Origin: Hormoscilla sp. | Lineage (GTDB): Bacteria; Cyanobacteriota; Cyanobacteriia; Cyanobacteriales; Desertifilaceae | Assembly (NCBI GenBank): GCA_051439505.1 | Contig: JBFRWI010000196.1 | Span: 1 to 8,339 of the forward strand | Direction of reading: 5' to 3' | DNA: 8,339 nt | Shown here: positions 3,001 through 8,339 of the stretch, piece by piece | Layout of the letters: each line of letters begins with the position of its first letter | Numbering within the stretch: position 1 is the stretch's first letter | Made by a program: the position numbers

Positions 3001-6000
3001 ATATATACCCGATATGGTAGGGTATGTTAACCAAGCAAAACCTGCGCCAGAACCGTCTTCAGCCTTAGGTGTTCTGGTGTTTGGCATGGCCTTTGTAGGA
3101 GTGTTAATCAAGCGCGGATGGTCGAAACTGACACGGTAGAAAGCAATGAGTAGGGTGGGCACTGCCAGTACTGCCCACCTTATTACCGAGAAACAGGATA
3201 GTAAAAAAATGAGAAATTGTCAGGGAAAAAATCTGCTTTTACCTTTGGTATTGTGCCTTTGGCCAATGGCTGGGTTGGCACAAATCGCCCCCGATGCTAC
3301 TCTCCCTAATAATTCCATCGTCACGCCCTTGCCAGATAACAGGATCGAAATAACAGGGGGCACTCCAGTAGATAGCAACCTGTTCCACAGCTTTCAGGAG
3401 TTTTCTGTAGATACTGGCAGCACGGCCTACTTTAACAATGCAGTAGAAATAAGAAATATATTCAGTCGGGTAACAGGGGACAGCACATCAAATATAGATG
3501 GTCTCATCAGAGCCAACGGCAGCGCAAACCTGTTTCTGCTCAACCCCAATGGGATTATCTTTGGTCCAGATGCCCAGTTAGACATTGGTGGGTCATTTCT
3601 GGGGACGACAGCAGAAAGCATAAACTTTGCAGATGGCACTCAGTTCAGTGCTACTAATCCTCAAGCCCCACCTCTGCTGACTATTAACGTGCCCATAGGC
3701 TTGCAATTTGGGGCAAGGCCGAGAGAAATTGTTGTTGAGGGTTTTGGACATGCATTAACTGCTAATCCGGAAAGGGGATTTGCGATCGTGCGCAATCAAC
3801 CCAGGCAAAGTCTGCAAGTAAATCCCGGTCAAACACTAGCATTAGTGGGCGGAGATGTGACATTAACAGGAGGCAATCTGATTGCCGAGTCGGGGCGGAT
3901 TGAACTAGGAAGTGTAGGTGGTAACAGTCTAGTTAATGTGAACCAGACAGATGCTGACTTGAGTTTGGGATATGACGGAGTGCAGAACTTCCAAGACATT
4001 CAGTTGTCCGGGCGATCGGGCGTAGATGCCAGTGGGGAAGGCGGCGGCAATATTCAAGTGCAGGGGCGGCGGGTGACAGTTGCTGAAGATTCATTGATTT
4101 TAGCGATCGCCGAAGGCTTTCTTCCCGGGGGGGAATTATCAGTGAATGCCTCGGAGTCGGTAGCAGTAATTGCCACGGGAGAGAATCCCGTAACTCCCAG
4201 TAGCTTATTAACGGAGACTCAGGGGATAGGCCCTGGGGGGAATTTGACAATTACAACAGGTCAGTTGACGTTCCAGAATGGGGCCCAGGCATCATCATCA
4301 TCTTTTAGTCCTGGTCGAGGAGGGAATTTGTCAGTTACAGCCTCAGAGTCCATAGAACTGACAGGCACAACGTTACAAGGTAGACCGAGTAGCTTGGCTG
4401 CTGGAACTGTAGGTTTGGCAGAGGGTGGGAACTTGCGTATAGCCACCGATCAGTTGATTGTCCAGCAAGGGGCAACGGTGTCAACAACTACTCTCTTTGG
4501 CGATCGACCAGCGGGAGATATAAGCATTGACACCAGAGAATTGATCGTGAGAGAGGGAGCACAAATAAGAACCGACACGATGGGAGCTGGAAATGCGGGA
4601 AATTTAGTTATTAACGCTGATGAAGTAGAATTAAGCGGAGTGGGGGTTGAACCCAGCGGTTTATTTACTCAAGTCAATACTCCAGTTGCGGCAGGAAATG
4701 GGGGAGATTTGACTATCAAAACGGGACAGTTAAGAGTGCTAGAGGGGGCACAGATATCAACTGGTACTTTTGGCGGCGGAGAGGGAGGAACTGTAACAGT
4801 AAACGCCTCGGAGTCTGTGGAAATAATGGGCACAGGCACTACTATAATTCCCGAGCCAATTCCACAGCCAAGTCTGGTCCCCAGCGCCATCACTGCGGTC
4901 ACAGTAGGGGAGAAAGATGCGGGAAATTTGACCATTGAGACAGAACGGTTGATTGTCCGGGATGGGGGACAGCTAACAGCCGCTACTCGCGGTCCAGGAC
5001 GGGGAGGGACTTTGTCAGTAACCGCTGATAGCTCGGTGGAGGTAAGTGGCGTTGCTCCCGACGAGCGGCCTTCGCGCTTAACTGCTCGAACTGAAGGACC
5101 CGGAGATGCCGGGAATTTGAGTATTGATACAAGTCGGTTGACGGTGGGAGATGGGGCGGAAATCAATGTCAGTGGAGTTCTGAGAACTCCAAATGGAGCG
5201 ATCGTACCTCGTGAGGGTTTAGGAGCAGCGGGTAACCTGAATATAGATGCTGCGGATATTAGGCTAGACAACGGAGGCAGTCTGAGAGCGGAAACTACAG
5301 CAAGAGGATTGGGAAATATCGAGCTGAATGCCGAGGACATGCGCTTACGCAATGGTTCTCAGATCACCGCCAATGCTCAAAATACCACGGGGGGCAATAT
5401 CACCATCGACACGAACACATTAGTCGCCCTGGAAAATAGCGACATCACTGCTAATGCCCAAGCAGGTCCAGGAGGTCAGGTAAGAATAGAAGCAGAAGGG
5501 ATCTTTGGTACGGAATTTCGCGATCGCCCTTCTGTAGAAACAAGTGACATCACGGCAAGTTCCAACTTAGGACCAGAATTCAGCGGCATTGTGGACATCA
5601 ACACCCCCGATGTCGATCCAAGTGAAGGGTTAGTCAAATTCGATAATGAAGTAGTGGATATCGAGGCGCTAATTGAGCAGAATCGCTGTAACATAAGTGA
5701 GGATAGTCAATTCATTATTACAGGTCGCGGCGGTTTGCCTCCCTCTCCCAACGATCCCCTAGTTCCCACCATAATTCCGGGAGCAAGTACAGGAGCAAAC
5801 TCTCAGCAATCAGTGGTGTCCAATCGGCCAAGTAAGGAACAAATTGTCGAAGCTCAAGGGTGGATTATCAATGATAAGGGGAAAGTAGAACTGGTTGCAA
5901 ATCCTCCCAAGATAACTCCTCACTCCCCCTGGTTTATTTTACCTGATTGTCAGGAAAGTCGGAAAAACTTGCCCGATCGCACTGCTTCTGGGAAGATAGT

Positions 6001-8339
6001 AGAGAAGATCGTAGTCAAAGAGTTCCATCTGGCGGGTAGTAGCGTATTTACAGAGGAAGAGTTACAAGAGGAACTCAAAGATTTGGTGGGGAAGGAGATC
6101 GCTTTTGCCGAGCTGCTAAAAGCCCGATCGCGCATTACTAAGTTATATGTCAGGAAGGACTACATTACATCGGGTGCGTACATGCCGCTGCAAACGATAG
6201 AAAACGACGTGGTAAAAGTCCAGGTGGTGGAAGGGAAATTAGCAGCACGGGATATAGAGGTAACAACCAGTGGTAACTTAAGTGAAAGTTGGGTAAAGAA
6301 GCGGTTGTTAAGGGCGACAAAAAAGGCTCTCAATCGGGAAAAACTGATAGCAGAGTTACAATTGCTGCGACTGGAAGAGGGTATAAAGGCAGTGCAGGCG
6401 GAACTGTCTGCAGGTATCCGTCCGGGTACGAATGTGCTTTCAGTAGAGATAATAGAGGCCAACCCTTTGAGTCTGCAAGTGACCGCAGATAATGGCCGAT
6501 CGCCCAGTGTGGGCAGTTTCCGGCGCGGCGGTTCCTTGAGTTATGCTAACTTGCTCGGAACGGGCGATCGCCTCCGGGTAGGATACACGAATACAGCAGG
6601 CAGCGATGCGATCGATGGGGGTTACGCTGTGCCCTTGAATGCCCGCAATAGCACCTTAGAATTGCGCTACGCTTCCGGGGATAGTAATGTGGTGGAACGA
6701 CCATTCGACCAAGTAGATATTGAAGCAGATTCTCGCACATACGAACTGACATACCGGGAGCCGATCGTCAGAAAACCGTCGGTAGAAATTGCCTTAGGAC
6801 TAACAGCATCGCGGCGGGAAAGCGAAACCTCACTGCTAGGAGTGGACTTTCCCCTGTCACCAGGAGCAAATGATGACGGAGAAACCAGACTATCAGTGCT
6901 GCGCTTTTACCAAGACTGGGCCCAGCGGGGGAAAAAGGGAAAATATCTTTTTGCGCTCCGTTCAGAATTTAATCTCGGGGTAGGTTGGTTTGATGCGACA
7001 GTAAACAGCAGCGGACCCGATAGCAGATTTTTCTCCTGGCGGGGACAAGGACAATGGGTACGCTCCTTAGCAGATGATAGTTTTTTAGTAGTGCGAGGGA
7101 ACGTGCAGTTGAGTCCTTCAGATTTAGTACCTTTGGAGGAATTTGGCATCGGCGGTTACCAGAGCGTGCGGGGGTATCGCCAGGATACTCTGCTAACGGA
7201 TAATGGAGTATTCGGCTCTGTAGAGGCGTGGATCCCAGTAGTGCGGTTCCGTTATGGACGGCATGGGGTGCTCCAACTGACACCATTTGTAGATTTCGGA
7301 GCAGGTTGGCGCAGCGACGGTCAAGCAAATCCCGATAAAAATGTTTTAGTATCAACAGGAATTGGTTTACGATTAAAATTAGCCAAGCAGTTAACGATTC
7401 GCCTTGACTGGGGCATTCCCTTGGTGGATAGAGATTCGAGGAACAGGACATGGCAAGAAAACGGAATTTATTTCTCCATCACATCAAGTCCATTCTGAAG
7501 CCCAATACAAGAGGGAGGCGACCAGAGCAAATGTTCCTATAATCAAATTGCTCGTTCCTGCTTTCGTATGTCCATCAGATGTTTGCGGGGGGTGTGGCTC
7601 CGGAGCCCGTCGATCTAAGATACTGTGGGGTAATTAACTGGGGGTGGAACCCCCCAATTGTCCAGAACCACCAGATGCAGATGATTTCAACCCTCTGGCC
7701 TCCCCCTGCCCCCTGCCCCCTGCCCCCTGCCCAGAGCGCACGATTTGGTAATTCGCCCACAGCATCATCTAACGGGCGGCCCTCCCAGTCGCCGGATCCC
7801 CCCTAACTTCCCCGCGTCAGATCGTCCCCGTGTCAGAGCGTCCTCTTAAGGAGTTCGTCCTTCGGAGTTCTCTGGGAAGGAGTTGGGGATATCTAGTTCC
7901 GCAATAATGATTTAGGGTTTGAGTAGCTGTCGAACTCACGTACTTATATGAATCAACTTAAAAGTTTCCAGCCGATCGGGTAAATTAGCAAAAATTTTCA
8001 TGATATCATAATTTAGTTAAATTTCAAGGGGAAAAGGCTATTCCCGGCTATTCCCGGCTATTCCGGGCCCGCTCGCACTATCGAGAGGCAACGGCATGTT
8101 ACAATGTGCAAGTGCGCAGTTCGACTACGCTCCATCTGGTTCCATCTGGGGAGAAGGGCGGTCACACCGCTAACGGGTGTGGTCAAAAGTAGTTGTAGAG
8201 GATCCCCCCAAACCCCCCTTAAAAAGGGGGGCGCGCCGGTTGCCCCCCCTTTTGGAAGGGGGGGTTTGGGGGGGATCCGGCGGCTTCCGAGGCCCTAGAA
8301 CTATCAACGGGTTTTGACCACACCCACCGCTAACCTCCG

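What a model noticed while it worked through the whole genome (the two positions that open the first line are those of the whole stretch)
3146..7498. Single-chain two-partner secretion protein (TpsA fused to TpsB)
g04868 (1450 aa) joins, in one reading frame, a signal peptide, a TPS secretion domain and about 650 residues of filamentous-haemagglutinin-type repeats to a POTRA domain and a ShlB/FhaC-type barrel. I read it as a self-contained type V secretion protein in which the exoprotein (TpsA) is covalently tethered to its own transporter (TpsB), a TpsA-passenger counterpart of the type Vd (PlpD) layout. That would be a further subtype of type V secretion, so far confined to filamentous cyanobacteria, giving a surface-anchored instead of a released haemagglutinin-like fibre.
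Evidence so far: pfam.tsv: TPS 45-305 (E 5e-68), POTRA_2 956-1030 (3e-18), ShlB 1097-1410 (1e-28), Omp85 1135-1445. N-terminus has a signal-like stretch LLLPLVLCLWPMAGLAQ. 24 of the 120 best database hits carry PF05860 (TPS) with PF08479/PF03865 (POTRA_2/ShlB) in one protein of 1387-2000 aa: Oscillatoria, Trichodesmium, Okeania, Phormidium, Sodalinema, Dapis, so the fusion is no assembly or frameshift artefact. The genome also has 16 other TPS-domain proteins and 6 separate POTRA_2+ShlB genes. The 2014 survey of the Omp85/TpsB superfamily (PMC4104836) lists ten subfamilies and, in the passages found with 'fusion', 'haemagglutin', 'cyanobacteria', no TpsA-TpsB fusion; searches in calls 37, 38, 40 found no pap [...]
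(Added by a program. Inside this text positions count along the whole contig: contig position 1 is position 1 of the stretch shown here. "Call 12" and the like, gene names such as g00115 and contig names such as C1 are that model's own, and its searches are not shown. The text may have been shortened before it was handed on; [...] marks where a part breaks off. The agent that wrote the report below was given it as the finding of a first reader that could run no searches.)

Follow-up and report, generated by a model that had tools for sequence, protein, structure and literature searches.

The report
Cyanobacterial surface fibre fused to transporter
This gene joins a secreted surface fibre to the outer-membrane pore that exports it; the layout has been noted in print since 2010 but seems untested, and a conserved pair of cysteines at the joint suggests that the fibre stays anchored through its own pore.

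Summary
ORF 3146-7498 joins signal peptide, TPS domain, beta-helix, two POTRA domains and a 16-strand TpsB barrel. 78 of 120 hits share the layout, some in closed genomes.

The novelty claim fails. Arnold, Zeth and Linke 2010 describe this fusion (Trichodesmium Tery_3487), Leo et al. 2012 discuss it under type Vd, and this scan noted it before in Trichodesmium. I found no experimental study.

New detail:
- 86 of 86 fusions with POTRA1 located keep two cysteines just before it; cysteine is otherwise nearly absent. Free TpsAs end in the same pair. This resembles the periplasmic disulfide anchor of HMW1/HxuA/CdrA.
- Barrels fit one old fusion; TPS domains do not, so passengers appear to be swapped.

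Best reading (0.55): a beta-helical fibre exported through, and tethered in, its own barrel. The type Vd prototype PlpD is now reported not to secrete its passenger, which leaves these proteins as the better candidates for fused two-partner secretion.

The parts
3146..7498 (+). Fused tpsA-tpsB gene (1450 aa from the first ATG; 1429 aa from the likelier ATG at 3209)
3209..3280 (+). Probable Sec signal peptide (aa 22-45), cleavage predicted at A45|Q46
   Evidence: hydropathy peak; Q46 nearly invariant in 62 aligned rows; homologue N-termini; no signal-peptide predictor was run
3278..4060 (+). TPS secretion domain (aa 45-305), NPNG motif at aa 133
   Evidence: Pfam PF05860 E 2e-67; TIGR01901
4061..5605 (+). 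Beta-helical passenger (aa 306-820), G/T/A/S-rich, no cysteine, no recognisable effector domain
   Evidence: AF2 model, mean pLDDT 85.9, pTM 0.82; best folds EtpA, HxuA, HMW1; composition
5606..5686 (+). Conserved 27-residue segment (aa 821-847) between helix and first cysteine; inferred to span the barrel pore
   Evidence: conserved in alignments; low pLDDT in both models; the role is inference
5687..5950 (+). Cys848-Cys935 loop; the C-terminal domain of free cyanobacterial TpsAs, inferred periplasmic disulfide anchor
   Evidence: 86 of 86 fusions; 15 free TpsA C-termini in this genome; no Pfam family
5951..6010 (+). Fusion joint (aa 936-955); too short for a TpsB signal peptide, lacks the Pro-rich linker motif of free TpsBs
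6011..6460 (+). POTRA1 (aa 956-1030) and POTRA2 (about aa 1031-1105)
   Evidence: PF08479; AF2 secondary structure
6461..7495 (+). 16-strand TpsB barrel with VRGY (aa 1341) and FxDxG (aa 1381) motifs and terminal Phe
   Evidence: PF03865; AF2 pTM 0.77; best matches CdiB and FhaC

Best explanation
A single-chain two-partner secretion protein that exports its own passenger and keeps it tethered. (1) Sec carries the chain to the periplasm and the signal peptide is removed (inferred from sequence). (2) The C-terminal barrel is inserted in the outer membrane with both POTRA domains in the periplasm (established for TpsB proteins; fold shown by model). (3) The unfolded TPS domain binds the POTRA domains of the same chain and the passenger is threaded through the barrel, folding outside into a beta-helix of about 775 residues (inferred from FhaC/HMW1B). 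(4) Export stops at the Cys848-Cys935 disulfide loop, which stays in the periplasm as the C-terminal loops of HMW1, HxuA and CdrA do; residues 821-847 lie in the pore (inferred). Because the TpsA end is already periplasmic, joining it to POTRA1 costs nothing in topology, which explains why the fusion is stable. The product is a one-to-one anchored surface fibre, most likely for adhesion or cell-to-cell contact. Passengers are exchanged with free tpsA paralogues while the anchor-plus-barrel part is kept. A protease, perhaps the TPR-CHAT protein that neighbours the gene in relatives, may release the fibre; this last step is speculative.
For: Domains and folds. The barrel keeps the motifs needed for TpsB activity (VRGY-like in 76 of 91, FxDxG-like in 88 of 91 distinct fused barrels; motifs as in PMC5422565). 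Two cysteines within 200 aa before POTRA1 in 86 of 86 distinct fusions with POTRA1 located, against 3 Cys in 60,668 passenger residues and 0 in 42,615 POTRA-barrel residues. Loop median 90 aa; second Cys to POTRA1 median 29 aa, range 17-95 (102 rows with duplicates). The same pair ends 15 free TpsA C-termini in this genome. Disulfide anchors of HMW1, HxuA and CdrA are described in PMC3297439, PMC5422565 and PMC7616799. The passenger's nearest folds are EtpA, HxuA and HMW1. Against the closest relative P0002, identity is 92% in the barrel, 69% in the loop region, 56% in TPS and 40% in the helix. One clade of fused barrels is not rejected once P0082 is set aside (p-AU 0.68); one clade of fused TPS domains is rejected (p-AU 1.3e-6).
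Against: No experiment on any member was found. The loop has pLDDT mostly under 60 in both models, so neither the disulfide nor its side of the membrane is shown. No family model or structure links the loop to the HMW1/HxuA/CdrA anchors; the likeness is position and cysteine pair only. Keeping the loop in every fusion is odd if the covalent link already anchors the fibre; it fits equally with cleavage after the loop. One lineage (P0084, P0085, P0090) lacks the second cysteine and POTRA1. The genome has six free TpsBs that could export the passenger in trans. PlpD is a warning that a domain fused before a POTRA need not be exported. The barrel tree backbone is poorly resolved, so a single origin is allowed, not shown.
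Confidence: 0.55

Rival explanations
1. A polyprotein: the chain is cut in the periplasm near the joint and then works as an ordinary TpsA/TpsB pair, the passenger being held only by its cysteine loop or released. The fusion merely fixes a 1:1 supply.
For: The cysteine loop is kept in 86 of 86 fusions, as expected if it must still anchor a free end. The joint is variable and probably disordered. A TPR-CHAT protease gene lies within about 3 kb in 21 of 23 fused loci, or in the same frame in one of them; the other two loci end under 500 bp after the gene. CdrA is cut by periplasmic LapG (PMC4694147, search listing only).
Against: No conserved motif between the second cysteine and POTRA1 in the alignments. 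In this genome the contig end matches the start of C26 exactly over 127 bp, and a chemotaxis operon follows, not a CHAT gene. CHAT genes also neighbour free tpsA and tpsB genes, so the link is not special to fusions. The 23 loci are not independent.
Confidence: 0.2
2. The passenger reaches the surface by another route: through a neighbouring free TpsB or a second copy of the fusion, or during BamA-assisted barrel assembly as in classical autotransporters.
For: Six free TpsBs, five of them 49-51% identical to the fused POTRA-barrel part. Loss of POTRA1 is tolerated in one lineage. TPS domains of fused and free proteins intermix, so partner specificity may be loose.
Against: The fused barrel keeps L6 and strand-13 motifs and both POTRA domains in most members, and the passenger keeps a full TPS domain. 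A tether only 20 residues from POTRA1 favours its own barrel.
Confidence: 0.13
3. The beta-helix stays in the periplasm, as the PlpD patatin domain does, and acts as a spacer or scaffold under the outer membrane.
For: PlpD precedent (PMC11116518). Everything N-terminal of POTRA1 starts on the periplasmic side.
Against: A complete TPS export signal and a nearly cysteine-free beta-helix of the kind that folds after export. The passenger diverges much faster than the barrel, as expected for an exposed part. The PlpD authors themselves contrast globular domains with beta-helical passengers.
Confidence: 0.08
4. Assembly or frameshift artefact joining two neighbouring genes.
For: One database case looks like this: P0082 (one contig) keeps a TpsB signal peptide inside the chain and has lost the second cysteine, and its nearest relative L078 has the two genes separate and overlapping.
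Against: 78 of 120 hits are fused, including closed genomes. The joint here has no internal signal peptide, and the free-TpsB linker motif is found in 0 of 86 fusions against 40 of 72 free TpsBs.
Confidence: 0.01

Closest known systems
Tery_3487-type TpsA-TpsB fusion of Trichodesmium erythraeum (Arnold, Zeth, Linke 2010, PMC2878562; Leo, Grin, Linke 2012, PMC3297439)
   Same: Same layout: haemagglutinin-like N-terminus, two POTRA domains, barrel. T. erythraeum IMS101 fusions ABG52378 and ABG52579 have the same Pfam set; that lineage is 46-47% identical over residues 800-1450 and falls among the same fused barrels.
   Different: Those papers give it a few sentences and a figure note, with no survey, anchor, tree or experiment. 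No tool gave me the locus tag, so which of the IMS101 copies is Tery_3487 is not confirmed.
HMW1/HMW1B and HxuA/HxuB (Haemophilus), CdrA/CdrB (Pseudomonas): anchored type Vb pairs
   Same: TPS domain, beta-helix, C-terminal cysteine pair held in the TpsB pore. Hmw1B-type barrel cluster. Passenger fold nearest EtpA, HxuA, HMW1.
   Different: Two polypeptides there, one here. The loop here is about 90 residues and has no detected sequence likeness to those anchors. Free cyanobacterial TpsBs begin with a Pro-rich linker, which the fusion lacks.
PlpD, prototype of type Vd secretion
   Same: One chain: N-terminal domain, POTRA, 16-strand Omp85-family barrel.
   Different: Patatin domain, one POTRA, no TPS domain; the patatin domain is reported to be periplasmic and the protein a dimer.
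Type Va autotransporters
   Same: One chain with a beta-helical passenger N-terminal to a barrel.
   Different: 12-strand barrel without POTRA and no TPS domain (recalled); here a 16-strand TpsB barrel with two POTRA domains.

Membership tests
Tery_3487-type TpsA-TpsB fusion | Haemagglutinin-like (TPS) N-terminus, two POTRA domains and a TpsB barrel in one frame | tested here: met
   definition in PMC2878562
Tery_3487-type TpsA-TpsB fusion | Homology to the T. erythraeum fused proteins | tested here: met
   P0034/ABG52378 46% over residues 800-1450; ABG52579 same domains; locus tag itself not confirmed
TpsB transporter (Hmw1B group) | 16-strand barrel preceded by two POTRA domains | tested here: met
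   AF2 model; best matches CdiB, FhaC
TpsB transporter (Hmw1B group) | VRGY motif in loop L6 and F/GxDxG on strand 13 | tested here: met
   aa 1341 and 1381
TpsB transporter (Hmw1B group) | N-terminal plug helix H1 and linker (predicted in most TpsBs, PMC5422565) | tested here: not met
   20 residues between Cys935 and POTRA1; free cyanobacterial TpsBs show a Pro-rich linker instead, absent from fusions. H1 is dispensable in FhaC.
TpsA exoprotein | TPS domain with NPNG motif followed by a beta-helix | tested here: met
Type Vb two-partner secretion, strict sense | Passenger and transporter are separate polypeptides | tested here: not met
   one open frame; definition in PMC5422565. Cleavage after synthesis is not testable here.
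Type Vb two-partner secretion, strict sense | Passenger crosses the outer membrane through the TpsB pore | not testable with these tools
   needs a localisation experiment
HMW1/HxuA/CdrA-type disulfide anchor | Conserved cysteine pair at the TpsA C-terminus | tested here: met
   86 of 86 fusions; 15 free TpsA ends in this genome
HMW1/HxuA/CdrA-type disulfide anchor | Disulfide forms, lies in the periplasm and retains the passenger | tested here: inconclusive
   loop at low confidence in both models
Type Vd (PlpD family) | Patatin domain with a single POTRA | tested here: not met
   no patatin match; two POTRA domains

The most novel reading that the evidence does not exclude
With PlpD no longer a secretor, these proteins are the true fused two-partner autotransporters: an old cyanobacterial family of self-exporting, covalently anchored fibres built on an unnamed two-cysteine periplasmic anchor domain. 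They keep the anchor-plus-barrel part, swap passengers with free tpsA genes, and in most lineages are released on cue by a neighbouring TPR-CHAT protease, a counterpart of LapG acting on CdrA.
Probability: 0.3. Interest if true: 0.6.

Novelty: new member of a known kind. Interest (0 to 1): 0.4.

Why it matters
The layout is in print, so the gene itself is not a discovery. It still matters in three modest ways. First, it fixes the passenger's C-terminus to the periplasmic side by a covalent bond, so it is a natural tool for the open question of how TpsA proteins thread through TpsB (N-terminus first or hairpin), and a 1:1 substrate-in-pore complex for cryo-EM. Second, type Vd lost its prototype as a secretor in 2024, and this family is the obvious replacement to test. 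Third, the two-cysteine C-terminal domain is shared with free cyanobacterial TpsAs, has no Pfam family, and suggests that these abundant proteins of mat- and colony-forming cyanobacteria are anchored surface fibres.

Tried and rejected
- Undescribed subtype: rejected.
- Many independent fusions: suggested by the variable joints and by the trees (3 label changes, 5). The AU test rejects one clade only when P0082 is included (p 2e-40); without it p = 0.68 (65 hand-picked rows of 170). P0082 looks like a recent frameshift join or an error.
- Loss of plug helix H1 as a special feature of the fusion: rejected, since free cyanobacterial TpsBs have a Pro-rich linker there, not an obvious helix.
- A CHAT protease gene directly downstream in this genome: not found; the probable continuation (C26) starts with a chemotaxis operon, and its tpsB-CHAT-DUF928-CHASE2 cluster is about 22 kb further on.
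- Sequence search of the passenger against PDB: 0 matches; only the fold search found relatives.
- Longer fused forms (2539-5000 aa): none among 7538 candidates, weak evidence.
- ESM Atlas: one cluster of 68 members with the same three Pfam families (score 0.98); for the cysteine loop only unnamed cyanobacterial clusters under 0.9.
- Rfam over the window: two chance-level hits on a terminal palindrome.
- Sequencing runs: the three holders with at least half the words are from one study, two of them flagged as possible sources; the one RNA run has a 0.07 share, which is no evidence. No read-level check of the joint or of expression was obtained.
- A complex prediction of the loop with POTRA-barrel was not available, so docking of the loop is untested.
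- Passages of PMC3482391, PMC4827864 and bioRxiv 10.1101/031039 held nothing on this fusion.
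Full report
OBSERVATION. The ORF at 3146-7498 is one frame of 1450 aa. A hydrophobic stretch ends at A45|Q46. 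Homologues have 19-34 residues before that Q (9 homologues shown), so the true start is probably M22 at 3209. The genome holds 16 other TPS matches and 6 separate TpsB genes.

ANATOMY. An AF2 model of residues 46-945 (62 rows; mean pLDDT 85.9, pTM 0.82) is a continuous beta-helix to about residue 820, then mostly low-confidence chain. Its nearest solved folds are EtpA, HxuA and HMW1. A model of residues 800-1450 (63 rows; pLDDT 81.2, pTM 0.77) shows two POTRA domains and 16 barrel strands by my count of the listed elements. Its best matches are CdiB and FhaC. The VRGY motif of loop L6 is at 1341 and FxDxG at 1381; PMC5422565 (passages and section 12 read) describes both motifs as conserved and L6 as essential.

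NOT AN ARTEFACT. With residues 800-1450 as query, 78 of the 120 listed hits carry TPS and barrel in one protein. They include T. erythraeum IMS101 and O. acuminata on closed chromosomes, and Okeania, Dapis, Laspinema, Baaleninema, Phormidium and Desertifilum. Of 79 genome loci found with the POTRA-barrel part, 23 are fused. Among 20 related genomes, a barrel match in an open frame over 1400 aa is listed for 2 (G005, G015); 270 matches were not listed and several same-genus matches contain stops, so this is a floor. No read-level check of this copy was obtained.

ALREADY IN PRINT. Arnold, Zeth and Linke 2010 (PMC2878562; passages and section 27 read, supplement not read) write that TPSS proteins of T. 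erythraeum, e.g. Tery_3487, are a gene fusion with the substrate: a large haemagglutinin-like domain, two POTRA domains and the barrel. Leo, Grin and Linke 2012 (PMC3297439; passages and section 6 read) repeat this in their type Vd section. These are the only two library papers that name Tery_3487. Heinz and Lithgow 2014 (PMC4104836; first of 7 parts, passages, Table S2 whole, other supplements by term) say in the text that no further domain profiles go with the TpsB barrel. Their Table S2 nonetheless lists 3 Hmw1B(2) proteins with PF05860+PF08479, and three of my fused hits (Q10ZE6, K9TIP7, K9TLX6) are in that cluster. That these are the same three is likely but not shown. I found no experimental study; most subscription journals are not in the library. 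A 2021 study of the unfused TpsB-like proteins of Anabaena PCC 7120 is recalled, not seen. This scan also noted such fusions in Trichodesmium before (e1-3131803); I had found the two papers first.

THE CYSTEINE LOOP. The mature chain has only two cysteines, C848 and C935, just before POTRA1. Among 91 distinct fused barrels, POTRA1 could be located in 86 (left out: P0082, P0084, P0085, P0089, L065), and all 86 have two cysteines in the 200 residues before it. The same proteins have 3 Cys in 60,668 passenger residues and 0 in 42,615 POTRA-barrel residues. The loop is about 90 residues, and the second cysteine lies a median 29 residues before POTRA1. Of the 20 other ORFs examined in this genome, 15 end in the same pair about 100 and 2-12 residues from the C-terminus. 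The rest are two cut by contig ends, one TPS-CHAT protein and two fragments. So the fusion is a whole TpsA joined by its last residues to POTRA1. The TpsB signal peptide and Pro-rich linker are gone: a linker motif that I defined by eye occurs in 40 of 72 free TpsBs and 0 of 86 fusions. HMW1 and HxuA are described as locked in their TpsB by a periplasmic C-terminal disulfide loop, and CdrA by a cysteine hook (PMC7616799, passages). The likeness is in position and cysteine pair; no sequence or structural homology was shown, and the loop is poorly modelled.

HISTORY. In a FastTree of 170 distinct barrels (three short rows and 17 duplicates dropped), 85 of 91 fused rows form one group with support 88. 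On 65 chosen rows, one clade of all 30 fusions is rejected, but not once P0082 is set aside (p-AU 0.68). P0082 keeps an internal TpsB signal peptide and sits beside L078, where tpsA and tpsB are separate and overlap. It is a recent join or an error, and shows a simple route to fusion. For TPS domains (29 fused, 29 free), one clade of fusions is rejected (p-AU 1.3e-6). The closest relative by barrel, P0002, is 92% identical there but 56% in TPS and 40% in the helix, and free TpsAs of related genomes are as close to this passenger (48%) as most fused ones. I infer passenger exchange with free tpsA paralogues. Repeated fusion of different tpsA genes to related barrels would give a similar pattern and is not excluded.

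NEIGHBOURS. Following a lead from earlier notes, I scanned 68 of the 124 ORFs listed for the 23 fused loci. A TPR-CHAT gene lies within about 3 kb in 21 of 23 (in L065 within the same frame); the other two loci end under 500 bp after the gene. Many also have DUF928 and CHASE2 genes. These loci cluster in a few genera and are not independent. This window is an exception as far as I can tell. Its last 127 bp equal the first 127 bp of contig C26 and occur only twice in the genome, and C26 begins with a chemotaxis operon. The join lies in a repeat, so it is probable, not certain.

MECHANISM. Best reading (0.55): after Sec export and barrel insertion, the TPS domain engages the chain's own POTRA domains. 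The passenger passes through the barrel and folds outside, and export halts at the disulfide loop, which stays periplasmic and is joined to POTRA1. Domains, folds, motifs and conservation are shown; every transport step is inferred from FhaC, HMW1B and CdrB. Rivals: cleavage into an ordinary pair (0.2), export in trans or with BamA (0.13), a periplasmic passenger as in PlpD (0.08), artefact (0.01). What the fibre binds is not known; adhesion is the likeliest use given the fold and the lack of an effector domain.

COMPARISON AND VERDICT. It is a member of the Tery_3487-type fusions. It probably works like the anchored type Vb pairs, and it is neither strict type Vb (one chain) nor PlpD-family. 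Hanson et al. 2024 (PMC11116518; abstract and Discussion read) report that PlpD's patatin domain is periplasmic. Novelty: new member of a known kind. Interest 0.4: the headline is 16 years old, while the anchor, the spread and the passenger exchange were not found in the papers I could search and give clear tests.

Noticed in passing
window 2585-3139 (+): 184-aa ORF ending 6 bp before the fusion gene, with a PEP-CTERM-like tail (TIGR02595 E 0.05 on the last 39 aa, below cut-off) and no other family match; may be co-transcribed.
   Followed up: partly
window 2495-2467 (-): A 12-of-12 sigma-70 consensus with extended -10 points away from the fusion into a region with no convincing ORF and no Rfam match; window 1775-2050 is a repeat with about 80-190 blastn matches per position elsewhere in the genome.
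   Followed up: partly
window 134-544 and 748-1716 (+): PIN-domain gene and a 322-aa ORF with no Pfam match; a similar-looking ORF lies beside free tpsA genes in L085 and L086.
   Followed up: no
L065:4148-11125 (P0090, P0129, P0130): Triple fusion of about 2330 aa: TPS, barrel, then TPR and CHAT after the barrel. The three records have contigs of similar length and may be one organism.
   Followed up: partly
P0084, P0085, P0090: Fused lineage that has lost the second cysteine and POTRA1, joining half the loop to POTRA2; seen in a 6.3-Mb contig and in other assemblies.
   Followed up: partly
L078:1607-4154 and L046:3163-5692; P0082: Free tpsA directly followed by tpsB on the same strand, overlapping in L078; P0082 is the read-through form. 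A likely precursor state of the fusion.
   Followed up: partly
G000:C26:22021-30000 (L081): tpsB, TPR-CHAT, two DUF928 and CHASE2 genes with no tpsA beside them; this TpsB has a short N-terminus without the Pro-rich motif.
   Followed up: partly
G000:C223:4010-9535: TPS domain and CHAT domain in one 1841-aa protein, without the cysteine loop.
   Followed up: no
L057 (T. erythraeum IMS101): A barrel end, a TPR-CHAT gene and a fused gene in a row; L028 has a fused gene whose TPS part lies in a separate ORF.
   Followed up: partly
L083 and L084: Fused genes in related genomes G015 and G005, each followed by a TPR-looking ORF that I did not scan.
   Followed up: no
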